Translations under genes and position numbers: made by a program
Notes under the pieces: generated by a model
Told to the model about the DNA's origin: nothing
The model's database searches: none
What the model saw: only the letters and a program-made list of their open reading frames with translations
Shown here: positions 1 through 59,639 of the stretch, piece by piece
Layout of the letters: the number at the start of each line of letters is the position of its first letter
Position numbering within the stretch: position 1 is the first letter of the stretch
Assembly (NCBI GenBank): GCA_052327205.1
Contig: CM126205.1
Location: 329,902,001-329,966,000, forward strand
Length of the DNA stretch: 64,000 nucleotides
Reading direction: 5' to 3'
Origin: Somniosus microcephalus
Lineage: Eukaryota

Positions 1-992
1 TAAAGAAGGAAAAAGATCTAATTTGCAGGCGAACTAATTTGAAACCCCAGCAAAAAAAAACAAACAAACAGGGATTTGGAAACTAGGGAAAGCTGTTGAG
101 TCACAGATTTAAAAAGGAAGGAAAAGATAAACTTAAAGCTTTACCAACATGGAAGTTATTAGCATCTGTACCAAGACAAGTAAAACACGAGGTTTGCTGA
201 GTGAAAGGAACCTTAGACATATGTTGGAATTACAGTTTGTATAAAAATGTGTGTGTGGATGTTTTCCTGATTAGGAATGTTTAAGAGGTTACAGTATTCC
301 TTTGTCTGAAAATCTGTCCGTTAAGAAAAAGAACTGTCTGCTGTGTGTTGTAGCCCCACCCACTTCTCTGTGTTAAAGAAAAAGCATTTAACCCCTTTGT
401 CTGGCCTTGGATTTTGGAAGTTTAAGAATGTGCAAATAAGATTGTGCCCTCAGAATGAAAAAAAAACCTATTACAATTTAAGTTAAGCTGGAGTGTAAAA
501 ACTGAGAAGAGCAACAAAAAGTTTGTTTAATGAAAGATTAAGTTTCAGTCTAAGATCTAACCTTGGAGTTATGAGGTAAATTAACCTATTAAAACCAGAC
601 TTTCATTGTGGCCACAGTGAAATTCTGGTTGATGTAAATTGGTGTAGTCCGAATTGAATAAGATAACTCCACTCCGCAAGAATATCTGATAGTGGCAGGT
701 CCCTCTACAATATTTAATTGACCATGGTACTGGAAGCCTTATAGAAGGCGGGACTAGAGTTAAACCTTAGAAAGGTATAGGTAGGGAAGGATGAAGTAGT
801 CGACCTAGGATACATAGTGACACAAGGGAAGAGACAAATGCCCAAAAACAGATGGGAGGGGCATTAGGACTGGCTGCGTGCTCTGATTGCTCGCAAGCTT
901 CTAGGGATGGCAACAGGAGGGGACCGCGCCAGAGAGGGGAGGGGGATCCGAGGATGTTTGTTGATGCATTGGTAGGGGGCCGACAGTGAAAA

Positions 993-1260
993 ATGTTAAT
1001 AGACACAGGAGCCACAATCTCATTGACAGACTTACCCTTGCCCCGAACGAAACTTTCAGTTAGTATAGCAGGAATCGGTGGACGAAGAATCAGGACTTAT
1101 AAGAGCGAAACAGTCTTACTAGAAATTGGATGTATAATAATACCTACACAGTTGTGGGTATGCGAGAACACCGAAGGAACAATCCTAGGGATAGATATAC
1201 TGCGAGAAGTAGGAGCTTTAGTCGACCCTAAAGCGAATGAAGTGTACTGGCCCCCAGATT
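993..1260 (+). pseudogene. pro: Retroviral aspartic protease
   Basis: MLIDTGATIS active site, SIAGIGG flap, ILGIDIL C-terminal motif in ORF 993..1340. Confidence 0.85.
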
Positions 1261-1334
1261 ATAAGTCAAACAAACAGGCAGGCCCGGGAAACAAAGTAGA
1301 AATGGCCCAGCCTATACAGGATTTGATCAAAAGG

Positions 1335-1600
1335 GGGTAGCCAAAGGAAAATGTGTAAACCTATATAGATAGTCGGAATGCCTTTGGGGTGGTGTCTGAT
1401 TACATGATAGCGGGAGTAGGCAGGGATATATGACACCAGGAGAAGACCCGTAAGAGACAAGAATATAATCAAGGAATGAGTAGGAACCTCTCTCCTACCC
1501 AAAGAGTGCATAATAATAAATTAAAGCACACAAGAGGATGGGCAGCTAAACGAGCAATTGAGAGAGGGAATCTGACCAATGAAGCCCAAATGTTCATGTT
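1335..1600 (+). pseudogene. pol: Retroviral RNase H remnant (frameshifted)
   Basis: Reconstructed AKGKCVNLYIDSRNAFGVVSDYM resembles the retroviral GKxVNIYTDSRYAFGVVHD motif; followed by K-H...RGN. Confidence 0.7.
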
Positions 1601-2215: not shown

Positions 2216-2430
2216 AGACAATGAGTAAACCAGAGATGGTGCCCTTTTTGACAGAGGGAGGAGTATACTAGAAGATATAAAGAATGGGAAGGGGAGTTAC
2301 TACATATATCAATGATAGGGCTGTGTATGATGATAATATTATATGCCATAGTTTGCATCTTCAGGTATGTCTGGGGACAGAGCCACAGAACAAGAAATGA
2401 ACCAGATGTACAGCATTTTGAACTGATAAA

Positions 2431-4127
2431 ATGGATAAGAGCAGAATAATTCTAACTGGCTGGTGACGACCAGCCCCCTTTTTGTAATTACAGGAACATT
2501 GGACGTCCGGAATGAGATGGAGCGTCCTCGCCTTGATTCTAGGGATAAATATAAGTATTGCCATTATCGAGGGGGATTAGTAATAAGGAGAACACAGGAT
2601 GAGGTGTATTTTAGTGTAGCACGTAGAGTTACTAAGCTTGCCATTAATATGAGTACTTTTGAGATACAAAACAAACCTGGAACTCCCTGTGGGTAAAACA
2701 ATTAGAGGATCCACAGGAAAAATCTGTCTTACAAAGATGTAAGAAACGGGGAGTATTGGAAACGACCGGAGCAGGGTATGCGGCCGGGTTAGCAACAGTT
2801 AATAGCTTGGACATAGAAGGAGTAAACGAAGGAGTAGAAGAATTACAAGCAAAAATAGAGAAGTTACTAAAACAAGCTACTGGAAATAGCCAGCAATTGA
2901 CACTGGCAGGGAAACCAAACAATAATGCAATTGTCGGGGGTGGAAGAGATAGTAGCCCCCCATGCAGAAACAATCAATACAATTATTGATAGACTTAATA
3001 ATGCTTCTCACCAAACCGATAAGGAACTAATATGTGCCACGTAGGGCTCATGGATATTGTCGAATGCTCAGCATAACATGAGGCAAATAAATAATGGACA
3101 GATCCATGATTGGATTACTAATAAGGATCTGGAACCTTGGATTGACACAAATAAAAGCCTATGTAAGGAGTGTAAAATGGGACAAGTACACCGGGCAGGC
3201 GATTGTCTGACCCCATGGACTACGATGATTGGCTTTGTACTGGCCATCCCACAATTCCCAGAAGGGGGACAACCCCGATACGATGTGATTAATATAGGAG
3301 AAGTACAAAGGGAAAGTGGGTTAAATATCATGATGTCCCTACCAAGGCGCTTTGGGAAAGGGATGAAGATAATAAACAGAAGAATGAAACCTAAAGGGGG
3401 GTGGTAGTGGACGGGTGCCACCACAAGGGAAGGACATGGGTGTGCACACACCCCCCCACCGAGGGAGACACATCCGAGTACGGATTTACGAAAATTACCA
3501 ATTGCACCCTTGAGGTTCACCCAAGGGGATACACTGGACCTGGGTAGCATCAAGGAACAATGGGACCTGTTGTGTCACCACAATTGAACAGAAATATGAA
3601 TATCAAGATATGGCTTATACCATTCCCTAACCAAACCGTTGTATTGGTCTAAAGATACCTATACAGATAGGAAAACCTGGTCATTTGATAATATGAGACT
3701 TACTAAAAAGGGTTGAAACTAATGTCATACCAGAGCCCAAGGCAATTCCTAAGTTAGAGGAAGCTTGCCAGAAGTTACGGCAGGAAACGAAGGAAATTTT
3801 AAAGTACTATCATAAAATAGAAGAAGGCTTAAAGAAACAACAAAAAGACATTAGTACAACATTAGAGGAAACTCACCCACTTCCTCATATTTTGATAATT
3901 GGGGATCAGGATGGTCGGGGACTTTGGGCGCCTCGGTGGTACAAGGCATAATGATATTCCTCTTGATTGTTATTCTGATATATTGTGTATTTTTATTTCT
4001 CCAGTGCCTTTGTGCCAGAATGAGTAAGGCCGAAATTGGTGCGGTGAAAGAAGTAGAGCCTGAGGAGGGGCAGGTAGCGATGTTAAGAATGGACAACTCC
4101 CCCGCCTCTCCAAGGCAAATGGTGTAA
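2431..4127 (+). pseudogene. env: Envelope/fusion glycoprotein, multiply frameshifted
   Basis: Signal-like start at ATG 2431; basic site RCKKR at 2735-2749; fusion peptide GVLETTGAGYAAGLATVNSLDIE; heptad VEELQAKIEKLL; Cys-containing ectodomain; TM IMIFLLIVILIYCVFLFL; cytoplasmic tail to stop at 4127. Confidence 0.8.
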
Positions 4128-4598
4128 GACACGATGGGAAGCCCTGAAATTATATGGGATTAATTGGGCATGGTAATTAATGACCGGGCCGGCCAACCGT
4201 AAGATGGAGGTGGCAGAAGGAGGGTGGCAGAAGGAGGGTGGTGAATGAGGACTGGTGTGTGATGACAGTCTCGAATTGGCACGTCACACACCCCACGTGG
4301 GAATGAGGGACAGGCTTGAGCAGAAAAGCCTCAACCATTAGTGCAGGGTCTAAGGGGCCCCGGGAATGGTTACACCGGACGGAGTGCATAAAGGAAAGCC
4401 CACCCTAAAGGAAAGACCACCGTAAAGGAAAGACCACCATACCACAGAGGGGGAAGTCGGCCTCCAAATTGATAAGATATATATACGTATAACGTAAACT
4501 GGTAGAAGGCCAGGGAGTGCACGCTCTGGCAGACACCAGGAAGTGGAAATACATGTTGACCTGTTTGGAGCAATTGTCCAAAGGTCAAAAGGGGGGAC

Positions 4599-5411
4599 TG
4601 AAGTAAGATATTAAAAAATTGGATTTAATAAGGTAAAACAAACCAGGATTCATCTGTAACACCAATATACAAAATGGAGGGAATAGGTTAATTCGTGCTC
4701 TGAGTTGAACAATAGAAGTCTGTAAAAGTTGTATAAACCCAGATAAGGTTTAAACAGGACTACGGGTTAACTGCTGAGAGATTAAAACTGTCAAAACAAC
4801 CCCTTAGAAAGAGGGAGAGATATATGGGTTCGGCCACGCGAGTCGACACCTATGCACTTGAAGGGTTTGTTAGTGTGAAGCTCAACAGGGTTCTATTCTT
4901 TAAACTAACTAAAGTGTTTTTGCTCTGTAGAAATAATTCAAGAGAGAGAGACAGAAAGTCTGCGGATTGCCCGCTTTGGAAAGATCTACTATCTTAGAGA
5001 AATACTTAAAAAGACCAAGCCATCTGACAACAGCAAATGGACGATCATAAAGTAATAAAGTTGAGGCCCGGGGTCATGAGAAAGTAACAGGACCAACTGA
5101 TAACGAAATGTGAGATTTGTAAGCGACTGGAAGAATGGAATGTCACGGTTTTATAATTACAATTTAACTATAATTCTGTATATGCTAATAAGCTTATCCC
5201 CGCCTTTAGGGCAGGGCCTTAATTTTTGTATAATTGTGTGAACCTCAAGAGATTCGGTGGAGTTGGAGCCTTGTGTTGGGACGCAAGAGCCATAGCTCCC
5301 CAGGCCTGAATAAACCGTTTTTACTTCAATTATTGGGTCTGTCTTTCTTACATCAAGCCAGTGTTGTCGACTTTGTATATCACTTAGTCCACACTTTGGG
5401 GTCTTACATCA
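4599..5411 (+). repeat. ERV 3' LTR (~813 bp)
   Basis: Directly after PPT 4587-4598; starts TGAAGTAAGA and ends TCTTACATCA (terminal inverted repeat, 1 mismatch); AATAAA near 5308; an alternative end at 5355 has the same 10-mer. Confidence 0.8.
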
Positions 5412-6164
5412 CCAACTAGAACAGGCACTGAGTTAAGATGAGAGGAACTGGCTGGGTTTGGTTCTGAGGGTGGGGCTATGGGCCAGAGGCAGGTCTGAAA
5501 TGTTTGGGACACCGGAAGGCCAGCATGGAGCAGGAATAGGGCATGGTGGGCCAGGAATGGACCATGGCAGTTTTAGGGGTGGGCCAGGACAGGTTGGGAA
5601 GCAGTCAAGCTGGCGGAGAGAGGGCGGCAGTGTGGCAGGACTCATGGGAGGCAAGGACAGGATTGTTAAAAGGGAAGCAGACCTCCCATATCATTGCTCG
5701 GGGCTACTCCAGGGGGTGGAGAAAGTTGCCAGAGGAGGAAAGTAGTCACGGCCTCAGCAAACCTCAGGGCAAAATTTAATAGGCATATTTCTGAGAGGAG
5801 TTGAGCAATTTTATGGGTAAATTGATTTTTTTTGTTGAAATTTCTTTACATTTTTATGTTTGCTATCGTATAAATTTGCATTTTTTTTTTAAACGTGTGT
5901 GTTGGTTCACGCTCCAACAACAGCATGAGCCTTGTCAATAAAAACTAGGTGCACTAAAGTTTATTTTGTGAGTTTTCTTGTACCCTCTGATGCATTTTGT
6001 TGGTTGGTTTTGCTGGGTAGTCAGCCGCTTCTGCATTTTTGTTTATTCATTCCCCTGCCATTACTTCAATCCGTTGTTCCTGGTTGTTGCTGGGAGGTGG
6101 GCAAGCCTCAGTGTGTTCTGAATGCATTACATAATTGAGAGGAAGAGGAGGAGTTGGTGAGGGG

Positions 6165-9299: not shown

Positions 9300-11347
9300 G
9301 GTATGGCTGAGGTACTAAATGAGCACTTTGCATCTGCCTTCACCAAGGAAGAGGATGCTGCCACAGACATAGTATAGTAATCTGGGATGTAATGTTCAAG
9401 TTATCCACCAGATGGAGGCAAATATTAAGGGTTCACATTCACCAGTTTTTAAGGTAATGGGTCATATATTCAAAGTCCTGGTACACCAGTTTATACGGCA
9501 ATGTGGCATTGCATTATGGGTATGACTCAGAGGTGAATCCTCCATCTTGCCATCGTGCAGTAAGAATTGTGTGCTTTGCTTGCAGCCAGTAAGAGATGTT
9601 TCTCTGCTAAACCGGGTAAATAAACAGTTGGGTTTTGTTCCTAATATCTCGCTTCTCTCAGTTTCTGACCTTACCACTCGGATATCACACATAGTAAATG
9701 AGGAGGTGCTGGAGATACTTGATAAGATAAACATTGATAAAGAGGAGGTATTAGAAAGGCTGGCTGTACTTAAAGTAGATAAATCACCAGGAGCGGATGG
9801 GATGCATCCTAAAATGCTGAGGGAATTAAGGGAGGAAATCGCGGAGGTACTGGCCATAATATTCCAATCCTCCTTAGATACGGGGTTGGTGCCAGAGGAC
9901 TGGAGAATTGCAAATGTTACACCATTGTTCAAAAAAGGGTGTAAAGATAAACCCAGCAACTACAGGCCAGTCAGTTTGACCCCGGTAGTGGGGAAGCTTT
10001 TAGAAACAGTAATCAGGGACAACATTTACAGTCACTTGGACAAGTGTAGATTAATTAAGGAAAGCCAGCACGGATTTGTTAAAGGCAAATTGTGTTTAAC
10101 TAACTTGATTGAGTTCTTTGATGAGGTAACAGAGAGGGTTGACGAGGGCAATGCGGTTGATGTAGTGTACATGGATTTCCAAGAGACATTCGACAAAGTG
10201 CCACATAATAGGCTTGCCAGCAAAGTTGAAGCCCATGGAATAAAAGGGACAGTGGCAGCATCGATACGAAATTGGCTAAGTGACAGGAAACAGAGAGTAG
10301 TGGTGAACGGTTGTTTTTCGGACTGGAGGAAGGTATACAGTGGTGTTCCCCAGGGATCGGTTCTAGGACCACTGCTTTTCTTGATATATATTAATGACTT
10401 GGACGTGGGTGTACACGGCACAATTTCTAAATTTGCAGATGAAACAAAACTTGGAAGTACAGTAAAAAGTGAGGAGGAGAGTGATAGACTTCAGGAATAC
10501 ATAGACAGGCTGGTGAAGTGGGCAGACATGTGACAGATGAAATTTAACGCAGATACATTTTGGTAGAAAGAATGAGGAGAGGACATATAAAGTAAATGGT
10601 ACAATCCTGAAGGGGGTGCATGGACAGAGAGACCTGGGGGTATGTGTTCACAAATTGTTGAAGCTGGTAGGGCAGGTTGAGAAAGCAGTTAAAAAGGCTT
10701 ACGGGATCCTGGGCTTCATAAATAGATAAAGGTATAGAGTACAAAAGTGTGGAAATTATGATGAAGCTGTATAAAACACTGGTTCGGTCACAACTGGAGT
10801 ACTGTGTCCAATTCTGGGCACCACACTTTAGGAAGGATGTAAAGGCCTTAGAGAGGGTGCAGAAAAGATTTACGAGAATGATTCCAGGAATGAGGGACTT
10901 CAGTTACGTTGATAGACTAGAGAAGCTGGGGTTGTTCTCCTTGGAGCAGAGAAGATTGAGAGGAGATTTGATAGAGGTGTTTAAAATCATGAGGGCTCTG
11001 GACAGAATAGATAGAGGGAAACTGTTCCCTTTGGGAGAAGGGTCGAGAACCAGATGACACAGATTTAAGGTGATTAGCAAAAGAACCAATGTAAGAAAAA
11101 AACTTTTTTACGCAGCGAGTGGTTAAGATCTGGAATGCACTGCCTGAAAGGGTGGTGGAGGCAGATTCAATCATGGCTTTCAAAAGGGAGTTGGATAAGT
11201 ATCTGAAGGAAATAAATTTGCAGGGCTCCGGGGAAAGGGCGGGGGAGTAGCTGAAGTGCGCTTGCAGAGAGCCGGCACAGGCTCGACGGGCTGAATGGTC
11301 TTCTTCCATGCTGTAACCATTCTATGATTCCATTCTGTGATTCTATG
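9300..11347 (+). mobile_element. 5'-truncated CR1 LINE (ORF2 RT to 3' tail), interrupted by a solo LTR
   Basis: RT motifs KSPGADG, NYRPVSLT, QHGF, GVPQGSVLGP, FADE (YADD-equivalent mutated); ends in ATTCTATG tail repeats. Confidence 0.92.
9373..9689 (+). mobile_element. Solo LTR (317 bp) inserted in CR1 ORF2
   Basis: 5-bp TSD CATAG (9368-9372 and 9690-9694); termini TA(probably from TG)...CA; AATAAA near 9618; CR1 sequence is continuous when it is removed. Confidence 0.75.
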
Positions 11348-16083: not shown

Positions 16084-16499
16084 TGTAGTGGCGCTTCTTA
16101 GTTTCCAAACAGGCAGGCCACTGAGCTGTGGGGCCTTTAACAACGAGTAGACGCGTGTCGAAATAAAACGTTCCCAAACGTAGCTTTGTCTTTTAAACTG
16201 TTTACTATAACACTTAACAAACAGAATTACAAACGAACACGGTCAAAAACTGTACTGCTCCAAACCTCACAGCTTCTGCCTCTTTCACCACGTGCAGTTT
16301 AAAACTGTAAGATGGCTGCACCCATGTGTGGCTTAGGGACTGTTCCACTGTGGCAAGAATGAAGGGGGTGTCGGACTATACTACTGGAGCAAGAAAATAG
16401 GGGGTTTCTTAATACAATAAGTCGTTCAGGTAAATTAACTGTATTATGCCATTTAGCCACTATTTTAAAGTATTTTCTTAAGCTTTTATGGCTCTTACA
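16084..16499 (-). repeat. BEL 3' LTR (416 bp)
   Basis: Direct repeat of 23002-23432; by eye differs by one 15-bp indel and 2 substitutions. Confidence 0.95.
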
Positions 16500-16624
16500 T
16501 TCCGGCCCCTAATTGACTAGGCACATGAAGCATATCAATTACTCAAACATTAAGAGTCATAAACTAATGAGTTCAACATATTTACAATACAAGTGTCCAC
16601 TTTTTTCTTTCGTTCAGGAGCTTT

Positions 16625-19600
16625 TCACGCTGCTTCTTGTAGCAGGCAGAGCTTTGTGATCGGTCTCTCCAGGGTACTGGTCTTGGTTTGCAAACAGACG
16701 CGACGAACGACGCCTCTGGAGTCTGGCATGGTCTTAATTATTTTTCCCATCAACCAAGAATTTCTAGGGGCTTAATCATCCACAATTAAGACAATGTCTC
16801 CGACGATGAAGTTCCTCTTTATTTTGGACCATTTTTGACGCTCCTGTAGCAGAGGTAAGTATTCTCTTGTCCATCTGGTCCAGAAGAGGTCTGACATATA
16901 CTGAACTTGCCTCCACTTCCGACGGGCATACAGATCTTCCTTTTTGAAGACTCCCGGGGGCATGGCTGGCTGTGTTTTCAACAACAACAGGTGGTTCGGA
17001 GTCAGGGCTTCGAGGTCATTGGGATCATCTGATGTCTTAGTTATCGGTCGGTCATTAATGATGGCTTCGACCTCACACAGAACGGTTTGGAGTCCCTCGT
17101 CGTCCAGCGCTTGCTGCTTCAGTACAGAACTGAGTAGTTTTCTTACGGTGCGTATCTGTCTTTCCCAGACACCTCCGTGGTGGGATGCAGCCGGAGGATT
17201 GAAGATCCACTTAATTCCTGTTTGCATCATGGCTTCCTGTATTTTAAGCTGATTCCAACCTTCAATAGCTTCCCGTAGTTCTCTCTCTGCTCCGATGAAA
17301 TTAGTGCCATTATCAGAACGCATAATGGACACCTGTCCTCTTCTACAGACAAAGCGCCGCAAGGCGTTAATACAGGAATCAGTGTCAAGCGTGTGTGCCA
17401 CCTCAATATGAACTGCTCTGATGCTCTCAAACAAGTGAAAAGCACACCATATCTCTTGACAAGGCTCCGTCCTCGCTTTACCTCGAAAGGCCCGAAATAG
17501 TCCACCCCTATGTTTGTAAATGGGGGCTTGTCTGGTAACAAACGGTCTTCAGGCAGGTCTGCCATTTTCTGCTCCCCAGCTCTAGCGTGTAACCGTCTGC
17601 AAACAATACATTCAGAGAGTATTTTTCTTATTACGGAATTAGCTCCTGGAATCCAGTATCTTTGTCTTAGCTTCGCAAGCACGTGATTCCTCCCACTGTG
17701 TCCAATACTCTGGTGTATATGCTGAAGAATGAGATTAGCAACCCGGAGGTCCTTAGAAAGGATAGCAGGATGCTTGGCCTCCTCTGGCATAGCAGATTTG
17801 TTTAGTCTCCCTCCCACCCTCAGTACTCCATCTTGCAGTGTAGGGTCCAGCTTGTAGATATGACTACCTTTCTTGATTGGAGTATTTTGCTGTAGAGCTT
17901 CGGTTTCTTCTGGGTATCTTTGTCTTTGACTGAAGCAAACTATCTCCTTCTCAGCCTTGGCCAAATCCTCCACGGTCAATGAATTCTTGCTCAATGTGGT
18001 CTTGTGCTGATGCATATGCTGCTGTAGAAGCATTCTCTGCTTATCAGGGTTACTTTCAGACTGACTGATAGTGGCTCGGTACTCTTTTCTCTTACCGCTC
18101 AGGTGTAGCAGCAACTCTTTCAACCTTAGAAACCATGCAACTGCTTTCCTCAACTGGTGCCATCCTGAGAAATGGTTAACAAGCTTGTTCACTGTGTCAA
18201 AGTTCTCTTTCGTAGTTATGAAATTTACTGTGACTGATCTCTTGACTTCGACGTCGTCTTCAGTAATCTGACTTGGCATATCTGGTCTTTCTGGCCATGA
18301 TCTCTCTGTTTCCAGCAGATAACTTGGGCCTTGTATCCAAGTTTCACTCCTCATGAAGTTTTCAGCCTTCAATCCCCGTGAGGCTTGATCTGCTGTGTTT
18401 AATGAGGTGTTTACATACCTCCATTGAGATGGTTGTGTAGCTTCTCTAATGGATGAGATTCTGTTTGCTACGAAGGTCTTGAAGCGTATCTTCTCACTCT
18501 CTATATACTTCAGCACCGTCGTGCTATCTGTCCAGAAGACAGATTCTTCTAATGGGAGCTGTAACTCTTTACGCATCACCTGGTCAACTTTAACTGCAAC
18601 AACCGCTGCCGTCAATTCCAGTCTCGGGATGGTGACCTGCTTCAGCGGAGCCACCCTGGATTTTCCCATGAGGAAGGCACAATGTTTCTGGCCCTGTTGA
18701 TTTGTCAGCAAGAGGTAGGTAGCCGTGCCATAGCCGTCCTCACTGGCGTCCGAGAAATGATGTAGTTGAGCCGTCTTTGTAACTCCAAAACTCGCGGGCT
18801 TGATGCATCTACTGACGTTGAAGCTAGAAAGTTGTTGCAAATCTGTCAGCCATCTGTGCCATCTCTGAGCTTGACCTTCTGGGATATCTTCATCCCATCC
18901 TCTCTTGTCTCTACACAGCTCTCGTAGCATCAGCTTCACCGGCAGAATGAGTGGTGCCAGGAATCCGAGAGGGTCGTAGATGGAACTGACCACGGAGAGA
19001 ATCCCTCGTCTTGTGGATGGTCTTTCGTTCACCATTATCCTGAAGTTGAACGTGTCTGACTCAATGCACCATTGTACACCAAGAGCTCTCTCGATAGGAA
19101 GGACATCGTGGCTCAGGTCCAGATCTTTGACTTCAGTGGCTCTTTCCTTTTCTGGGATAGAAGCTAGAACTGCCCTGCTGTTGCTTATCCACTTAGTCAG
19201 ATGGAATCCTCCATTCGAACACAGAGTTCTAAGGTCTCTTGACAGTGCGATGGCATCGTCTTCTGTTGACACGGACTTCAGACAGTCATCGACATAAAAG
19301 TTTCTGAAGATTGTCTCCACAGCCTCGGATGGTGCTTTGCCCTTGCCATCTTCTGCAGTTTTTCTGAGAGCGTAGCTTGCACAGCTGGGAGATGATGTGG
19401 CTCCAAACAGGTGTACGGCCATTCTACATTCCACCATCGCTTCACTAACGTCGCCATCTGGCCACCAAAGGAAACGCAGAAGATCAGCATCTTCGTCAGG
19501 GATTCTGACTTGGTAGAACATTGATTCTATGTCTGCCATCATGGCAACGAGCTCTTGTCTAAACCTAGTCAAGACGCCAATGAGGGTATTAGTAAGATCA

Positions 19601-22600
19601 GGACCTTGAAGCAGCTGGTCATTCAATGAAGTTCCTCTGAATGAGGCGGCGCAGTCAAACACTACACGGATCTTTTTCTTCTTTGGGTGATACACCCCGT
19701 GATGAGGAATGTACCAGACCCTTCCATCGTCTCTGTTCAACTGTTCTTCGGGCACTTTTACAGCATAGCCTTTCGCTATGATGTTTCTCATGAAGTCTTT
19801 GTAGTCTTCGTGAAAGTCGGGGTTCTTGTTCAGCTTTCTCTTTAGACAGATGGCGCGTTGCTCTGCTATGCAGCGATTGTTCGGCATCTTCGCGGTCTGT
19901 CTTCTCAGTGGCAAACCAATGTGATAGTGGCCATCAATGAACTGTGTAGACCTTGTCATCAAACCCATGAACTGATGGTCTTCTTGTGACATCTCTGTCT
20001 TTTCCTCACAGCTGCGTTCTGAGAAGTCTGCGTTGAACTGCTGTATCAACAGCTCTTCAATGCTTGCGATAGAGATGCGATTAACTGTGACGTTTTGTCG
20101 TTCCTCCTTGTTCGACTTGTGGCCATCGTCTCTCCTTACCGGTCCATTGATTACCCATCCAAGGGCTGTCCTGACGGCGTAGGGTCCGTCATCCTTGCTG
20201 TTTATCACCTGCCATGGCTCCATAGTTTTGTAGGCATTGGTTCCAATTAATAGGCCAATTTCTGCTTCAATGTATGGGAGACGCACCTTTTCTAGGTAGG
20301 GCCATCTATCCACATCCTTCTGCAGGGCTAGGTTCCCTATTCTAACAGGAATCTCCCTCTGTGTGAAAACATTAGGCAGGTCTATGAAGTCCTTCTCTTC
20401 AAGTCCACACACTTCTAGGTCTGACAGGATATAACTTTGCATTGACTTCTCATGACCCATGGTGCGTAATAGGATTTCTGTTCTTCTGCCTCTAACGTTC
20501 AGCTGTCGCATGAGTGATTCTGTGCAGAACGTTGCTGAACTACCTGGATCCATGAAGGCATAAGTCTCCACAACCTTCTCACTCCTCTTAGACTTGATCC
20601 TTACTGGTACGATGGCAAGAATACAGTCACTGTCACCGGCCCCAGTGAGTCCACAAGTCTCTGGTTCTAGCGACACCAGAACACTTGAAACAACCTTCTC
20701 GTCGGTATTGTTTTCATCACTCTTCTTAGAGACTTGTTCTTCTTTATGGATATGCAGCAGACTGGGATGTTTCCGAGTGCACTCTCTGCATGTTGTTCTT
20801 TGCTTACAGTTTCTACTCAGGTGCCCCTGAGAGAGACATCCAAAACATAGGCCGTTGTACTTCAGGAATTCGATTCTGTCCTTATGTGGCTGTGCTTTGA
20901 TGTCGCTGCAGAAATCCAATGTATGATTCTTCTGGCAGAATAAGCATGGCTTCTGAAAGGCATTAGCAGGCGTCACTGTGCTGCTCTTTTTGGGAGATGA
21001 GTTCTGGGGCCTTTCTTCCTCGGCCTGAGTGACGATAGTTGCAAAGCTGCTTCCCCTGGAACCACCTTTCCTGAGAGTCTTTGATTCAGCAGGCTTGGTT
21101 TTCACTCTTCCATCGGTGGTCGGGCTGACATCCTGGATGTTTCCAAACAATGGGTCCCTAGCAATTTTAGCCTGTTTGTCTATGAAATTCACTAAGTCTG
21201 CAAACCTGGCTCTACTTTTCCGTCTCTCCATTATCTCAAAGGCTGTTCTTCTCCATTGTTCTCTCATCCTGTAAGGAAGCTTAGAGATGACGATTCTCAT
21301 AGTCGTCGGATTGTCCATCTCTTCCATGAATTCAACATCCTCCATGGTGTTGCGACATCCTATGAGGAAGAGAACATATGCGTTCAATGCCTCTCCGTCT
21401 TCCGATCTGATCTGTGGCCACTTGGTAGCCTTTTCGATATATGCAGTGGCTATCTTCAGCTCGTTACCATAGTGCTCCTGCAGCAACTTCCTGGCTTCTA
21501 TGTATCCCCGGTCCGGTCTCATGTGTTCACAGCTTCTGACCAGGTCTTGTGGTTTACCACTGGTGTACTGTCCCAGGTAGTACAACTTATCACTGCTGCT
21601 CTCTGTCTTGGAGTCAATGGCTTGTTCAAAGGATCTGATGAAGGGCTTATACTTGAGTGGGTTGCCTTGGAACACTGGTATGTCTCTTTGAGGGAGTCGA
21701 AACAGATTCTGTTGTTTTACAAGCATCTCTGTAATTTCGTTCTGACGTTGCATCACTCGGTATAGGCTTCTCCCTGTGTCTTCAGGCCTCTGGTGGTCAT
21801 CAGCAGGGTCTAGTCTAGACCGTCTGACGTCTGGGGTAGCATCACGTGCTCCTGTTAGTGGAGAGGCCACTCTTCCACGCTGTAATGCCGGGGAATTGCT
21901 TTCGGGCTCTGTTGTAACTCTTGAAGGTGCCCTGGATCCAACTCTATGTGGCAACATTGACTGGCAGTGGCTCCCGCCGTCCCGTGAGCCTTCATAATCT
22001 TCGTACGCACTCAACCTGGCATCTGAGACCTCGATAGCTGTTTTCATCTCCAGCCGTTCTTTCTTTGCCTGCACCTGGGCCCGCTGGGCCTGCACTTGGG
22101 CCTGTTGGGCCTGCACTTGGGCCTGCAGTTGGGCCTGTTGGGCCTGCAGTTGAGCCTGCAGTTGGGCCTGCAGTTGGGCCTGCAGTTGGGCCTCTTGGAC
22201 CTGCAGTTGGGCCTCTTCCCGTTCAAGAGCTTGCTTCTCATCTAAAGATGCTGCGCGCGCCATCAACGTCGCCCGTTCAGCCTCCGCTCTCATGCGTCGC
22301 GCCGAGCTTGTGGTAGAAGCGACTGACCTGCGTCCAGAAACAGAGCTACCTTCTTTTCGATTTTTGCTCGGTCTGGCGGAAGTCTCTGAAATGCTATCGT
22401 CTGGTCCGACTTCATCGTCAACCTTATCTTTCTCTGCTGTATCAGCATCTTGACGAATTTTTAACATCCACTGCTCCGTGGCCTTGATATAGTCCTTAAT
22501 GCTGGTTGATTTAAGATCAAACCAGTCGTGCTGATCAGTGTTTCCCTCTTCTTCAGACAGAAGTGCTAATACATCTTCATTGAGTATATTAAATTCTTCA

Positions 22601-22839
22601 TGCAGCTTGGAGAAATCGTAATACATCATGTCTTCAGCTTTCTTAATATTAGCATTATCTTCCATGAGACGATCAATTATCTTCATTTTTCCAGTTATCT
22701 GAACTAATTTAGCCTTCCTTGCACCTATGCTTCTATGTAACTTCTCTTCCCTTGCCTTTGGGGTGAGCTTTATTTCCCTCTTTTGGCCAGCAATCCTTCT
22801 GGCTGGGGGAAGCTCCTGGCTCCTTAAGGCCTCGGCCAT
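16625..22839 (-). CDS. BEL/Pao Gag-Pol polyprotein (Zn knuckles, protease, RT, Pao RNase H/peptidase A17, integrase) with one frameshift and one premature stop
   Basis: 1870-aa ORF: CLFC..H..C, CFGC..H..C, DPGS protease, RVVFDCAA, YVDD, HHFSDAS, TIPRLEL, HHCC; integrase DDE part in the 17434-16772 frame; the frame continues past TAA as APRNSW...LERPITKL to TGA at 16625. Confidence 0.93.
22065..22215 (-). repeat. Coding tandem repeat (QAQL/QAQV units) in BEL Gag
   Basis: Repeated CTGCAGTTGGGC / CTGCACTTGGGC 12- and 9-mers, all in frame. Confidence 0.9.
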
Positions 22840-23001
22840 TTTACCCGCAGCTCTTATTTAGCTTCTCAACAGAATGAACAAAGCAAGTAACAGTCACTGT
22901 ACCTTCGCTTTCTTAAATTGTCGTCTGGCTCCGTGACCATTCATGTATACGTTCGCCGACGATTCCGTCCCTTCCTTCTTAGGGAGCTAGTTTTTGACTA
23001 A

Positions 23002-23432
23002 TGTAGTGGCGCTTCTTAGTTTCCAAACAGGCAGGCCACTGAGCTGTGGGGCCTTTAACAACGAGTAGACGCGTGTCGAAATAAAACGTTCCCAAACGTA
23101 GCTTTGTCTTTTAAACTGTTTACTATAACACTTAACAAACAGAATTACAAAGCAAACACGTATAAACGAATACGGTCAAAAACTGTACTGCTCCAAACCT
23201 CACAGCTTCTGCCTCTTTCACCACGTGCAGTTTAAAACTGTAAGATGGCTGCACCCATGTGTGGCTTAGGGACTGTTCCATTGTGGCAAGAATGAAGGGG
23301 GTGTCGGACTATACTACTGGAGCAAGAAAATAGGGGGTTTCTTAATACAATAAGTCGTTCAGGTAAATTAACTGTATTATGCCATTTAGCCACTATTTTA
23401 AAGTATTTTCTTAAGCTTTTATGGCTCTTACA
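23002..23432 (-). repeat. BEL 5' LTR (431 bp)
   Basis: Direct repeat of 16084-16499; followed on the minus strand by TAGTCAAAAAC. Confidence 0.95.
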
Positions 23433-30519: not shown

Positions 30520-30722
30520 CTAGGCAGGGCAACTCAGTCCCATGGAGTGTACATCCTGTGTCATGTGGGAAGTCCTAGACGCTTCGCTTAGCCTGGATGA
30601 CCACATGTGCAGGAAGTGTCGCCGGCTACATCAACTCGAGCTCCGGGTTTTGGAGCTTGAGCGGCAGTTGGAGTCACTGCGGTGCATCCACGAGGCTGAG
30701 AGTTACGTGGCTAGCACATTTC

Positions 30723-33700
30723 TGTTAGATCCGTGATTCTGAGAGTATGATGTTTTTCAATAACCACACGGATGCTGTAACTTAACAATCAACAGGTATT
30801 TACTGGAGTAGGGTAGTCTCAAGACTGGGGGTACAGAGGCATGCTCAAGGCTGATATACAGGTGTGGTCACTGCCGGTACTACAGTATACAGGAGCTGTA
30901 AAAGTAGTTCTCTCTTAAAGAAACATACACTACAATTCCTCCCCTTTTAGATTAGCAGTACCCATAATATTCAAATAACAATTAACACTTTAACATGTAC
31001 ATTAAACAACAATAGTCCATTTATAGATTCAGTCTTTGGGGCGGCTTCCTGATCCTTTCGGGATAGTGCCTTTCCTGAGGTTCTTGTTCTTGGTGCGGAG
31101 GCGATTCTGACCCCTTTTCGTCGGTTAGTTCATTGGTTTCCACTGCTGCTGGTTCTGAGGTAGATGCTACCGGTATGTCGGGTTCATCCCCAGGTACTCA
31201 AGACATGGGGTTGACTCGTTCCTGTGACGCTAAGATCTGATCGACGTGGCATCTCACAATGTTCTCCCCGACATCCACTGTGTACATTAATGGCCCCTGC
31301 CTTGTGCATATCGTTCCGGGTTGCCATTTCTCTGTTCGGTAGTCATGGGCCAAGACTGGTTGTCCTACATTGAAGCTCCTTGTCGGCTTCTCATTGATGT
31401 GCTGGAATTGTTTATCCTCAACATTTCTTCGCACATTTGGTCTGAGCAAATCCAGACGAGATCTCAACCTTCGGTTAAAGAACATCATGGCTGGGGTCTG
31501 GTTGGTGACTGCATGTGTTGCTTTTCTGTAGGCTAATAGGAAACTGTCCACCTTATGCTGTAGTGGAATTTCATCATTGCACATGGCCTTTATCGCCTTT
31601 TTAAAGGTTTGTACGAACCTCTCAGCCAATCCATTTGTGGCTGGATGATACGGGGCGGATGTGTAATGCCTGACCCCATTCCTTCTCATAAATTTCTGAA
31701 CTCTTCGGACACAAACTGTGGTCCATTATCAGAGCAAATCTGCTCTGGTAAGCCGTTCCTGGCAAATATGGTCTGTAGGACTGCAATCGTTTTCTCTGTA
31801 GTGGTTGAGGACATTTTTATCACCTCAGGCCATTGCGAGTGAGCATCCACTGCTATTAAGAACATTGAGTCCATGAATGGACCAGCAAAATCAATGTGCA
31901 CCCATTGCCATGGAGAGGAGGGCCTCTCCCATGGGTGTAGAGGGGCATGTGGTGGTGCATTTTGGAACTTCTGGCATCCTGAGCAGCTCTTGGTTAGGTC
32001 CTCGATTTGTTGATCGATCCCCGGCCACCACACATAAGCCCTAGCAAGGCTTTTCATTTTCACCCCTCCCAGATGACCTTCATGAAGCTCATTTAGCAGT
32101 CTCTCCCTTAACTTGGGTGGAATCACCACTCGGGATCCACACATCACTGTCCCCTGGCATACTGACAGCTGTTCTCTTCTGGATGAGAATGCTGGCAACA
32201 GTGAGTCGCCATGTGTTGGCCATCCCCTCACCATCAAATCATATACCCGAGACAGTGTCGGATCATTGCGGGTCTCCTTCTCTATATCCGTGTTCGTTAC
32301 TGGCAATCGTTCAATTATTGACGAATAAAATATCTCGATAGGGTCCACTGCTGGTGCTTCCTCCACAGTAGGCAGTGGCAGGCGTGATAGCCCATCAGTG
32401 TTTCCATGCTGTTTCGTGCCTTTATATTCTATTTCATATTGATTCGCCCCTAGAAACAGGGACCATCTTTGTAACCATTGTGCAGTCATCACTGGAACGC
32501 CCTTCTTAGGATTAAAGATGGAGGCAAGTGGTTGGTGGTCAGTCAGCAAGGTGAACTTCTGCCCATGCAGATAGTGGTTGAATTTTTTTACTCCCCATAC
32601 TAGGCTGAGGGCCTCCCTGTCAATCTGGGCGTAGTTGCGCTCGGCTGAGGTTAGTGACTGAGACGCAAAGGCTACTGGCCTCTCCAACCCGTCTGGGAAT
32701 TTGTGCGACAGCACCACTCCAATACCATAGGGTGATGCATCACATGCCAAACGAATTGGTAGCGCTGGGTTGAAATGGGCCAACACCTCTTTTGATGTGA
32801 GCAATTCTTTACACTTCTGGAAAGCTCGTCTACGTTCGTCATTCCACTTCCATGGTACCCCTGTTTGCAGTAGGGTGTTCAGTGGAATACCGTGGACAAA
32901 TTTGGTAAAAACTTATGGTAGTAGTTTACCAGCCTGAGGAACGACCTCAGTTGTGACACATTTTCCGGTGCTGGAGCCTTGACTACTGCCTCAATCTTTT
33001 CACGGGACTTATGTAACCCCTCTTCATCGATGACGTGGCCACAATACGAGATCTGCTTCTGGAAAAACTCGCACTTGTGGCGATTAGCTCGTAGCCCATA
33101 TTCCTTTAATCTGGTGAGCACCTTCTCCAAGTTGGCGAGGTGATCACTGTCATTTTCGCCCGTGACCAGGATGTCGTCCAAATAACACTGGGTCCCTGGA
33201 ATCCCTTGCAGGACTTGATCCATCGCCCTTTGCCAAATAGCCAGAGCCGATGCTACCCCGAACACCAGACGGTTGTATTGATAGAGACCTTTATGAGTGT
33301 TGATCGTGAGGTATTGTTTCGAGGCTTCTTCTACCTCCATTTGCCAGTACGCCTGAGCTAGATCAATTTTGGTGAAGCGTTTACCTCCAGATAGCGAGGC
33401 GAAAATATCCTCAAGTCGTGGAAGCGGATATTGTACCGTGTGAAGGACTGGGTTCACTGTCAACTTAAAATCCCCACAGATGCGGACCTTCTTTGGTTCC
33501 CCAGGCATATTACTCAATGTCCTCTTCATTACAGGAATGATGGGTGTAGCCCACTCGCTCCAGTCTACTTTGGACAGTACTCCTGAACGTTCCAACCCTT
33601 CCAGCTCTGCTTCGACGGCTGGTCTGATCGCATAAGGCACTGGTCTGGCCTTAAGAAACTTTGGGCTTGCATTTTCCTCTATTTTAATCATTGCTGTTAT

Positions 33701-35871
33701 GCCTTTTAGTGTTCTGAGTCCCTTCTGGAACACTTCTTTTGCGTCGGTTAGCATTTTTGACAGTCGTCCAGGTGTGACGTCGTCATCCTTTTTGGCCTCA
33801 ACCTGCAGTGCCTGTATGGAATGCCAATCTAATTGTATCTTCCGGATCCATTCACGTCCTAGCAGTGGTGGTCCTCCATCTGGCAATACATATAAGTCCA
33901 TTTTAGGTATTTCCTGGCCTTTGTATATCACTTTCACCCTTATTTTTCCTTTGGGGTAGACTTTTTGCCCCGTGTGCGTCTTCAAGACAATCTCTGTAGC
34001 TTTCAAGGGTATATGTGAAAATAGCCGCTTGTAGTCCCTTTGGTTTATGACTGTTAGGGCTGATCCTGTGTCCAATTCCATTTTCACTTGGACTCCGTCT
34101 ATCTTGAGTGTAACCCAGATAGTCTGGTGATCCTCCATTTTGGTTACCTTATGTAGTTTCAGACAACCCAGCTCCTTGCTTCCGGAGTCTGTGTCACTTT
34201 TCTGTTCGTCTGAACTACTGTCCATCAGCTTGTGTACCTTTTTGTACTTCTCCTGTGGAGATTTCTTGCTGTTGGTTTTCTTCCCAGACCTGCAGACTCT
34301 TGCTATGTGTCCTGCTTTTCCACACTGTCTGCACACTTGGTCCTTGAACCAACAATTCTTCTGGTCATGTGTTGTTCTGCCGCAGCGATAACACTTCCCT
34401 GTTCCATAGGACATTTCATTGGTGCCATATTCTTGCGGTCTCTGTTGTATCTCTGCAGCGCCCCTTGCGGCTGCTTCATGTGATACTGCCATACTGAAAG
34501 CCTTGTCCAGCGTAAGATCCTTTTCTGATAGAAACCGTTTCTGGGTTCCTTCACTTTGAAGCCCACACACAAACTTGTCCCTTAAAGTATCTGCTAGTCC
34601 CACTCCAAACTGGCAGTGTTTCGATAGCTTGCGCAGTTCCGTTAAGTACTCAGCATTGCTTTCGTCTTTGTGTTGGTTCCTTTTATGGAACTTAAATCGT
34701 TCTGCTATCAGCAGCGGTGTGGGGTTTAAGTGGTCCTGTAGGATTTCTACTATGCTTTCAAAATTCTTATTCACAGGCTTCTCTGGGGTTATTAGGTTTC
34801 ACAGTAACCCATAAGTTTTTGCACCCATGGAATTGGACAAAACCAGTGCTTTCCTAGCATCTGGCACTTCATTCGCCCTGCAGTACACCTCAATACGTTC
34901 CACATATGTCGCCCAATCTTCGACTTCATTGTCGAACGTAGAGATACTGCCACTCTTCGGCATCCCTGGGTGTGATTTAACTGTCAAAAATGGCGTCTCC
35001 CGTGCTTTCCCTTCTTCTCCGCTGGCACAAAATGGCGTCTCCCGCGTTTTCCTTTCTTCCCGCGCTCGCCCTTCTTCTCCGCTGTGGCTTCTAAAAATGG
35101 TGTCTCCCGCGCTCTTCCTTCTTCTCTGCAGCTCAATGGCATCTCCCGTGCTCTCCCTTCTCCCCGCGGACACTGTTCAGCCCTTGAGCCCTGGCTGCGC
35201 TCTGCGCGTTTTTTTTTCTGTGCGCCTTTCCTGTTTCCGCCGCTCGGTCCTGAACCCGGCTGCTGCTTTACCCTCTCTCTCTCCGTTTTGTTTTTCCTCG
35301 ACAATGCTCGGTTTTCAACCCCCGGCTGCGCCCTGTGCGCTTCACCCTCTATCTTACCCCGTCGACACTGCTCGGCTTTTTCTCTGCCGTCGGCCGGCTA
35401 CAGCCGCCGCTGTCCGGGAAGGGTCTGCGCTGTACCTGGTACCTGTCGTCAGTCTGTTGCTGACCGTCGTGGCTGGGGAACCAAGCCCGGCTCTCCACAG
35501 CCTCCCCTGCGATGTTCACTCTCTGCCGGACGACTGGGCGGTTGCTCGTGGTCGACGCCCATGTTTCTGGCCTCGACTTTCTTCCACCGCCCTCCCGGAG
35601 CGAATCCTCGAAGGGAAATGCAGAGTTGCAGGTAGATTCGAATCGACACTCGTCGCCACTGTTAGATCCGTGATTCTGAGAGTATGATGTTTTTCAGTAA
35701 CCACACGGATGCTGTAACTTAACAATCAACAGTTATTTACTGGAGTAGGGTAGTCTCAAGACTGGGGGTACAGAGGCATGCTCAAGGCTTATATACAGGT
35801 GTGGTCACTGCCGGTACTACAGTATACAGGAGCTGTAAAAGTAGTTCTCTCTTAAAAGTACATCCACTACA
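30723..35871 (-). mobile_element. Full-length Ty3/Gypsy LTR retrotransposon (Mag/K02A2.6-like), frameshifted
   Basis: 212-bp LTRs 30723-30934 and 35660-35871, TSD ATTTC/GTTTC, PBS TGGCGACGAG, PPT AAAAGGGGAGGAA. Confidence 0.95.
31021..34964 (-). pseudogene. Gypsy Gag-Pol (2x CCHC, protease DTGS, RT YLDD, RNase H, integrase), broken by frameshifts
   Basis: ORF pieces 34799-35173, 32879-34774, 31686-32804 and 31198-31689 are colinear with the intact ORF at 53613-57608. Confidence 0.92.
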
Positions 35872-36789
35872 GTTTCTAGAGCAGGTCACCCTGCAGCTTC
35901 AGAGTATGCAGGCAGAGAGGGCATGGGTGACCGCCAGACAGAAGAGGAGGACCAGGCAGGTAGTGCAGGAGTCCCCGCAGTGCATCGCGCTCTCCAACCA
36001 GTATTCTGTTCAGAGTACTGATGAGGGCGATGGTTCCTCTGGGGAGTGCAGCCAGAATCAAGTCCATGGCACCACGGGTGGCTCAGCTGCACGGTGGGGG
36101 GGGAGCAAAAAGAGTGGAAGAGCAATAGTGATAGGGGATTCGATAGTTAGGGGAGCAGACAGGCGTTTCTGCAGCCGTAGACGTGACTCCAGGATGGTAT
36201 GTTGCCTCCCTGGTGCCAGGGTCAAGGATGTCACTGAGTGACTGCAGGACACTCTGAGTGGGGAGGGTGAACAGCCAGAGGTCATTGTCCATATCGGTAC
36301 CAACGACATAGGCAGAAAGAGGGATGACATCCTGTAGGCAAAGTTTACAGAGCTAGGAGAGAGATTAAAAAGCAGGATCTCAAAGGTAGTAATCTCCGGA
36401 TTACTCCCGGTGCCACATGCTAGTGAGTACAGAAATAGGAGGATAGAACAGATGAATGTGTGGCTGGAGAGATGGTGCAGGAGGGAGGGCTTTAGCTTCC
36501 TGAGGCATTGGGACCATTTCTGGGGAAGTTGGGACCTGTACAAGCCGGACGGGTTATACCTCAACAGAGCCGGGACCAATATTCTCGCGGGGAGGTTTGT
36601 TAGTGTTGTTGGGGAAGGTTTAAATTAACTTAGTAGGGGGATGGGCACCAGCATATAGGAGTAGAAAAGAGGAATAAGGTGCATAAAAGAGTGAGTGTGT
36701 TGGATAGTACTAGAGAAGATAGTACTAGGGGTGGTAGTAGTACCATATTAGATAGGAGCAGACTAAGAAAGACTACGAAAAATTCAAAA

Positions 36790-58824: not shown

Positions 58825-59639
58825 ATGCTGACAGATTTAGATGAGGAAAGACGGGAGGAGGCCCGAGTGGAGCATAAACACCGACATGGACTGGTTGGGC
58901 TGAATGGCCTGTTTCTGTGCTGTACATTCCATGTGATTCTATGCAGTATCAAGTTTGAAAGTTTAAGATGATGCTACAATGTTTTTGGCTGGTGGTCTTG
59001 TGAAGATTAGTGCCGAGGGTAGGTTGCAGACTGACAAAAATGAGGAGCAGGCGAAGTTCACTCCCTTCCCTCCCAACTCCCTTCCTTTCTTTTGCCACCT
59101 AATACAAATGACCTCTTCTTTTCATGATATATTAATAAAATAAATTGTGAAACCATTAACAAAATAAACACCCTTACATTCTATATCACAGTATATCATC
59201 ACTATTAATTAAAACTGATACAGGTGAGATTATTCACTGCAGTGAATGTGTAAATCCTTGGGCGATGGTACCTCAATGATGAGAAGATTAGATCTATTTT
59301 CACTGTAGAAGACAGTCCACAGAAGCAGTTCATTAACTTAGAGAGTTATATGTCATTATATTGTATCATTGCTGGTTGTTGTCTATCAATCAGATTCGCT
59401 AGCAATGGATTAAACTTGCAGTGTTAGACAGGTGGGTCGAATGGATATTAGGAGTGATCAAATATTTCAAATAGCGACAGTTCAAGAATTAATAACCACA
59501 AAGATGCTTATTGAAAAAAATGTAACTTAAGTTTTCTATTGGCTATCAAAACCCACCAACAGCGCAGAATTGATGCAAAAGTTAACTTTGTCATCATAAA
59601 ATATAAAGTGCATTAATCATCCAATTAATTAGAACAAAA

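What the first reader, a model, noticed from the sequence alone, without database searches (positions are those of the whole stretch)
2431..4127. Retroviral env with a paramyxovirus/pneumovirus-F-like layout in a shark-like genome
Seen: the furin site RCKKR lies only ~105 codons after the putative start. It is followed by a Gly/Ala fusion peptide (GVLETTGAGYAAGLATVNSLDIE), a heptad repeat, and ~400 codons of ectodomain before the TM anchor. I see no CX6CC or immunosuppressive-domain motif. Established: gamma/epsilon-type Env has a long SU and a short TM ectodomain, whereas a short-F2/long-F1 layout typifies Mononegavirales F and has been reported for lokiretrovirus Env. Inference: this may be a lokiretrovirus-like ERV, or a retrovirus that captured an F-type fusogen, in a cartilaginous fish.
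Basis: partly seen in the sequence, partly recalled or inferred. Interest (0 to 1): 0.72.

Follow-up and report, generated by a model that had tools for sequence, protein, structure and literature searches.

The report
Shark retrovirus fossil, F-type envelope
This is a dead, much-copied retrovirus fossil in a shark-like genome whose envelope gene is predicted to fold like the fusion protein of measles- and RSV-type viruses, while its polymerase likely belongs to ordinary fish retroviruses and not to lokiretroviruses, which suggests that this entry protein is more widespread among retroviruses than published work says.

Summary
The env is real. It lies in a 7.2-kb LTR provirus (LTRs 99.1% alike, 4-bp target duplication), is in pieces, and has at least 190 close copies. 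No CX6CC was found, and cleavage site to membrane anchor is about 400 codons, here and in 5 of 5 relatives measured. Two low-confidence models (pLDDT 40, 49) and a language-model search point to the paramyxo/pneumovirus F and foamy Env fold. (1) The short front part is derived: RT-bearing relatives carry about 640 more bases there, an extra N-terminal domain on a Pro/Thr stalk. (2) It is not a lokiretrovirus: the RT of relatives lacks the Loki motif and falls between snakehead retrovirus and class I (gamma/epsilon) retroviruses. Walleye epsilonretrovirus Env models were among the best fold matches, so their unexplained Env may be F-type too. The envelope is spread across sharks (at least 7 lineages in this genome). 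I found no paper describing it, but this scan reached much the same reading twice before on other genomes. New variant of a known kind.

The parts
760..860 (+). remnant of the RT palm/thumb, out of normal order (upstream of the protease)
   Evidence: three-frame reading of window and older copies; compared by eye with RT of L122
990..1337 (+). retroviral aspartyl protease remnant
   Evidence: Pfam RVP E 2.8e-5, above cut-off; 94.5% nt to L122
1340..1600 (+). RNase H remnant in pieces; most of RT and the integrase core are missing
   Evidence: three-frame reading; gaps against L122/L123
1968..2225 (+). integrase C-terminal part with GPY motif
   Evidence: Pfam MLVIN_C E 0.0035, below cut-off; same motif in IN of L122/L123
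2221..2449 (+). small single-TM reading frame between integrase and env (broken here), possible accessory gene
   Evidence: hydropathy 2.7 at 2306; present in L112, L113, L122, L123
2431..4127 (+). broken env of F type
2547..2734 (+). F2-like part (strand plus helix of the predicted domain III)
   Evidence: maps to residues 1-~70 of the folded natural frame; model residues 24-242 align to F/foamy Env
2735..2818 (+). degenerate basic cleavage site and Gly/Ala fusion-peptide-like stretch
2804..2899 (+). heptad repeat A
   Evidence: 8 of 9 a/d places hydrophobic
3748..3873 (+). heptad repeat B
   Evidence: 7 of 12 a/d places hydrophobic; long helix in both models
3945..4001 (+). membrane anchor
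   Evidence: mean hydropathy 3.2
4587..4597 (+). polypurine tract
   Evidence: sequence
4599..5411 (+). 3' LTR (TG...CA); the 5' LTR lies just before the window (L031:8212-9024), followed by a primer-binding site
   Evidence: 813 bases, 99.1% alike, 7 differences, K2P 0.0087
5412..5415 (+). 4-bp target-site duplication, matching L031:8208-8211

Best explanation
This is a dead, high-copy endogenous retrovirus of a shark-like host, likely from a lineage between snakehead retrovirus and the class I (gamma/epsilon) retroviruses, whose envelope is predicted to be an F-type (class Ib) fusion protein. In the parent virus the Env would be made with a signal peptide, a variable N-terminal domain on a Pro/Thr stalk (the likely receptor binder), and an F-like core; a furin-type cut would free the Gly/Ala fusion peptide, and the two heptads would zip into a six-helix bundle to fuse membranes (inferred from F and foamy Env). 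The window's subfamily lost most of the N-terminal domain, most of RT and the integrase core, and its env broke; it then spread to hundreds of places, probably copied in trans by enzymes of a working relative, since the copies share their breaks.
Confidence: 0.75

Rival explanations
1. A lokiretrovirus in a cartilaginous fish, a host class where none was reported.
For: Env layout (signal peptide, basic site, fusion peptide, coiled coil, TM) and F likeness are as described for Loki (PMC7947760, text parts 1-3); the RT shares W-P-V-x-K-P, L-T-I-D-Y and N-G-F-W with Loki rows, but SnRV has them too.
Against: 21 of 21 named Loki RT rows in supplement part 71 have P-F-G where L122 and L131 have P-Q-G-F, as SnRV, MuLV and WDSV do. 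The paper gives the Loki tether as closer to Ty3 (32%) than to MuLV (24%); here the connection region aligns with MLV throughout and with Ty3 only up to residue 184. Loki was found in 0 of 6 chondrichthyan genomes.
Confidence: 0.05
2. A foamy-like (spuma) virus whose Env lost its receptor-binding insert.
For: Foamy Env is the top structural match; best integrase matches in the PDB are foamy (but no gamma integrase appears in that list); a TM-bearing frame lies just upstream of env.
Against: RT-RH is closer to MLV; protease is RVP type, Gag has two CCHC knuckles; the extra domain sits at the N-terminus, not just before the cleavage site as in foamy Env (PMC11468914 section 9); other lineages start env with an ordinary signal peptide.
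Confidence: 0.05
3. Shark retroviruses took this envelope separately from a negative-strand RNA virus (a recent capture), unrelated to the Env of walleye, foamy or Loki viruses.
For: Lispivirus/arlivirus glycoproteins score as well as or better than any retroviral Env; no non-shark sequence relative was found.
Against: At least 7 lineages at 24-35% identity in one genome and relatives in distant sharks make it old; WDSV Env has the highest sequence identity (17%) among the 50 listed fold matches. Order of the matches is not reliable with such models.
Confidence: 0.25
4. The F likeness is an artefact of long helices in weak models; the Env is of some other or unknown fold.
Against: The F/foamy alignments span strands on both sides of the cleavage site (model 24-242), unlike the helical ties (91-460); the language-model search is independent of the models and agrees.
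Confidence: 0.1

Closest known systems
Snakehead retrovirus (SnRV) and SnRV-related ERVs, including CmiERV lineage I of elephant shark (PMC4422223, part 1 of 2 read)
   Same: RT motifs; P0043, whose RT reads like the published SnRV row, scores 294 bits to L131 against 250 for the best class I row; shark host.
   Different: For the L122 RT piece class I rows score higher (224 against 196); the tree does not join the shark group with the SnRV-like row; Gag has two zinc knuckles, SnRV one (PMC2717909 passages). SnRV Env could not be compared.
Epsilonretroviruses WDSV and WEHV
   Same: Env without gamma hallmarks (PMC9967133 passages); their predicted Env structures match my models: WEHV-1 rank 3, E 4.6e-7, WDSV rank 12; WDSV rank 3, E 4.6e-6.
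   Different: RT has SnRV-type motifs, not the class I ones; Env is 600-800 aa against 1159-1317; WEHV-1 is not in the top 50 for the second model.
Foamy virus Env (PDB 8rm0; PMC11468914)
   Same: F-like core with a long post-cleavage ectodomain and an added domain.
   Different: Added domain is N-terminal here; pol and gag are not spuma-like.
Lokiretroviruses (PMC7947760)
   Same: F-related Env with the same order of motifs.
   Different: RT motif and tether differ; no smc-like gene seen; not reported in Chondrichthyes.
Paramyxovirus/pneumovirus F and lispivirus glycoproteins
   Same: Predicted domain III topology, cleavage site, fusion peptide, two heptads, TM.
   Different: About 10-14% identity; fuller copies add an N-terminal domain; sits in an LTR provirus.

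Membership tests
Lokiretrovirus | RT sister to all other retroviruses, Loki-type RT sequence | tested here: not met
   P-F-G in 21 of 21 Loki rows, P-Q-G-F in L122/L131; tree joins shark RTs to the class I side 96/96, though without Loki rows
Lokiretrovirus | Tether closer to Ty3 RH than to MuLV tether | tested here: not met
   continuous alignment with MLV through the connection domain, Ty3 match ends before it
Lokiretrovirus | Env related to Mononegavirales F | tested here: met
   by fold and features only; Pfam PF00523 best E 0.02
Lokiretrovirus | Integrase closest to CGIN1 | not tested
   no reference sequences at hand
Foamy virus (Spumaretrovirinae) | Spuma-type RT/protease, Gag without zinc knuckles | tested here: not met
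Foamy virus (Spumaretrovirinae) | F-like Env with RBD inserted just before the cleavage site | tested here: not met
   extra domain lies before the F2-like part
Gamma-type Env | CX6CC and immunosuppressive domain, short TM ectodomain | tested here: not met
   no TLV_coat hit for 5 of 5 long env proteins; profile does not match a TLV_coat-bearing fish polyprotein, probability 0.2%
Epsilonretrovirus | RT inside class I with WDSV | tested here: not met
   outside the class I group (100/99); motifs differ from the WDSV row; WDSV itself not in the tree
Epsilonretrovirus | WDSV/WEHV-type Env | tested here: inconclusive
   fold matches from weak models, tied with RNA-virus glycoproteins
SnRV-like ERVs (clade III / Huo) | RT groups with SnRV | tested here: inconclusive
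   shared motifs and scores but no supported common branch
SnRV-like ERVs (clade III / Huo) | SnRV-type Env | not testable with these tools
   no SnRV Env came up in any search; the original paper could not be read (then the paper cap)
Class Ib fusion proteins (F, foamy Env) | Domain III core: strand from the N-terminal subunit paired with strands after HRA | tested here: met
Class Ib fusion proteins (F, foamy Env) | Domains I and II, trimer | tested here: inconclusive
   these parts have pLDDT mostly under 50-65 and were barely aligned

The most novel reading that the evidence does not exclude
The F-type envelope is the ancestral envelope of vertebrate retroviruses: kept in foamy viruses, lokiretroviruses, this shark lineage near the base of class I, and the walleye epsilonretroviruses, whose unexplained Env is an F protein; gamma-type Env replaced it later. 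In sharks it works as a fixed F core with a swappable N-terminal receptor-binding module.
Probability: 0.3. Interest if true: 0.8.

Novelty: new variant of a known kind. Interest (0 to 1): 0.55.

Why it matters
Published accounts place F-related Env in lokiretroviruses 'but not canonical retroviruses' (PMC9040795 passages) and, by structure, in foamy viruses (PMC11468914); the walleye Env is called distinct and a recent development (PMC9967133). An F-type Env on the orthoretrovirus side of the tree, old and abundant in sharks, bears directly on where retroviral envelopes came from, and it makes a clear test: fold the WDSV, WEHV and SnRV Env. It also means that ERV surveys keyed on gamma-type TM motifs would miss a large shark family.

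Tried and rejected
Window fragments alone found nothing: word search, Atlas, PDB sequences, Pfam (Baculo_F E 0.11 on the TM piece only). PF00523 against the own genome gave 0, with a warning that the search was cut short. Profile searches of the PDB gave only coiled-coil noise, including weak gp41 matches to HRB-TM. Viral contigs held no RT relative. Twenty more divergent copies of the subfamily showed no full RT; long frames in them were LINE or Gypsy insertions. The primer-binding site looks like tRNA-Ser(GCU) from memory only; 12 of 459 matching places were checked and none was a tRNA gene. The first, large RT tree finished only as a quick tree. Neither gamma-type Env nor SnRV Env was listed in any fold search; absence there is not a test. 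Literature: 10 searches found no paper on an F-type Env in shark ERVs or in WDSV/WEHV; subscription papers such as Calcraft 2024 (Cell, seen only as a reference) were not searched, and bioRxiv supplements are closed. Expression was not examined.

Full report
1. The element. The env lies in an LTR provirus of 7,200 bases: 5' LTR just before the window (L031:8212-9024), 3' LTR at 4599-5411, both TG...CA, 813 bases, 7 differences, K2P 0.0087, with a 4-bp target duplication, a primer-binding site two bases after the 5' LTR and a polypurine tract. With the two rates used in PMC4422223 (2.2e-9 and an assumed 2.2e-10) that is about 2 to 20 million years. The genome is 6.4 Gb and every named env relative is from a shark; I did not try to name the host. 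Inside are a protease (Pfam RVP), scraps of RT and RNase H, an integrase tail and the env; most of RT and the integrase core are gone.

2. The observation. The gene is in at least six stretches. The window's basic site is degenerate; a canonical one stands there in 8 of 89 loci. A 21-base stretch of the short env occurs exactly 190 times, control 0. In 21 of 21 close copies read on the right strand the longest env frame is 108-187 aa and 18 of 21 share one frame (9 of 30 dropped for a strand error), so the subfamily spread after the env broke. Copying in trans is my inference; PMC10435555 (passages) names it as a known route.

3. The short front part is derived. Between window 2497 and 2571, 86 of 91 loci have the window's spacing and 5 have 712-1314 bases instead of about 73, including both RT-bearing relatives (the loci were picked by likeness to the window and overlap in part). 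The extra part ends in a Pro/Thr-rich stretch before the conserved Cys...Gly-Gly-Leu start of the core. Other lineages show the same plan: signal peptide, variable Cys-rich domain, Pro/Thr stalk, core, with 235-330 residues before the cleavage site. These N-terminal domains show no likeness to that of the window's lineage. The post-cleavage part is constant: 397-415 residues in 5 of 5. So the long 'F1' is real and the very short 'F2' is this subfamily's loss of what is likely the receptor-binding domain.

5. Which retrovirus. L122 and L123, themselves broken, share the window's protease, integrase tail and env (85-95% nt) and keep RT. L122's RT-connection-RH scores 202 bits to MLV-type RT, 87 to foamy, 70 to Ty3; the fuller RT of a sister lineage, L131, 227-232, 187-194 and 110. 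Against the RT rows in the supplement of PMC7947760 (part 71 read; passages) the shark RTs have SnRV's set of motifs, lack the class I ones, and lack the P-F-G found in 21 of 21 Loki rows. Nearest database pols are from sharks and bony fish at 38-54%. In a 36-row tree the shark RTs form one group (99/98), sister to a minnow element (97/95), joined to the class I side (96/96); an SnRV-like row (P0043) lies outside on a weak branch (80/57). No Loki, foamy or WDSV row was available. The best reading is a lineage between SnRV and class I. Gag has two CCHC knuckles.

6. Spread. Env-like frames from this genome fall into 7 groups below 60% identity, 24-35% to the window's group (87 frames); three searches each returned 120-131 scored matches. 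Relatives are annotated only as uncharacterised proteins in Pristiophorus, Mustelus, Chiloscyllium and Heterodontus.

7. What is known. Read: PMC7947760 (text parts 1-3 of 4, supplement look-ups), PMC4422223 (part 1 of 2), PMC11468914 (passages, section 9); passages only: PMC9040795, PMC12440569, PMC10435555, PMC12583693, PMC9967133, PMC11521997, PMC2717909 and bioRxiv 2023.10.26.564294, 2023.10.17.562709, 2024.03.25.586437, 2021.11.23.469661, 2021.11.05.467493. Loki was found in 0 of 6 chondrichthyan genomes. SnRV-related shark ERVs are known, and most cartilaginous-fish ERV RTs were classed as clade III. Epsilon Env is described as neither gamma- nor beta-type, and its SU could not be modelled. 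Ten searches found no report of an F-type Env in shark ERVs or walleye viruses; the library lacks most subscription papers. After my own work I looked at the scan's notes: two follow-ups on other genomes reached much the same reading; they are not independent support, and the antibody-like tip domain named in one was not tested here.

8. Verdict. A real, dead ERV; F-type envelope likely; not Loki; short front part an internal loss. New variant of a known kind, interest 0.55. The bold reading, F-type Env as the ancestral retroviral envelope including the walleye viruses, has about 0.3.

Noticed in passing
window 2221-2449; L112, L113, L122, L123: A frame of about 75 codons with one strong TM stretch lies between integrase and env in this lineage only (not in L083, L124, L163, L173, L175). 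In L112 and L123 it runs on in frame from the integrase tail. Possibly an accessory membrane protein.
   Followed up: partly
window 700-1340; L062, L063, L064, L074, L079, L081: gag and pol scraps are out of order: an RT piece precedes the protease here, and older copies have capsid-like pieces between RT pieces and different LTR middles, a mosaic made by repeated recombination.
   Followed up: partly
BFVD hits Q9WHI8, A4GTG3: Predicted WEHV-1 and WDSV Env structures match F-type models; I found no paper that says so.
   Followed up: partly
L132-L161 and further places: Another lineage of the same envelope type has many copies with open frames of 600-840 aa, so it decayed much less or is younger.
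   Followed up: partly
L031:9220-9480: Tandem imperfect repeats of about 70 bases in the leader after the primer-binding site.
   Followed up: no
window 16084-23432, 30722-35877, 53307-58829: Three more direct-repeat pairs at 96-100% identity, 4.9-6.9 kb apart, likely other young LTR elements; two of them are 70-80% alike inside.
   Followed up: no
window 9526-11057: LINE-type RT frame (CR1-like by recalled motifs).
   Followed up: no
G000, 459 places: A tRNA-3'-end-like 21-mer, complementary to this element's primer site, occurs 459 times; 12 checked places are not tRNA genes and look like other elements with a longer tRNA-derived stretch.
   Followed up: partly
BFVD hits A0A2P1GML9, A0A145VUZ2: A fish filovirus glycoprotein and an abalone herpesvirus protein also match the F-type models.
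   Followed up: no
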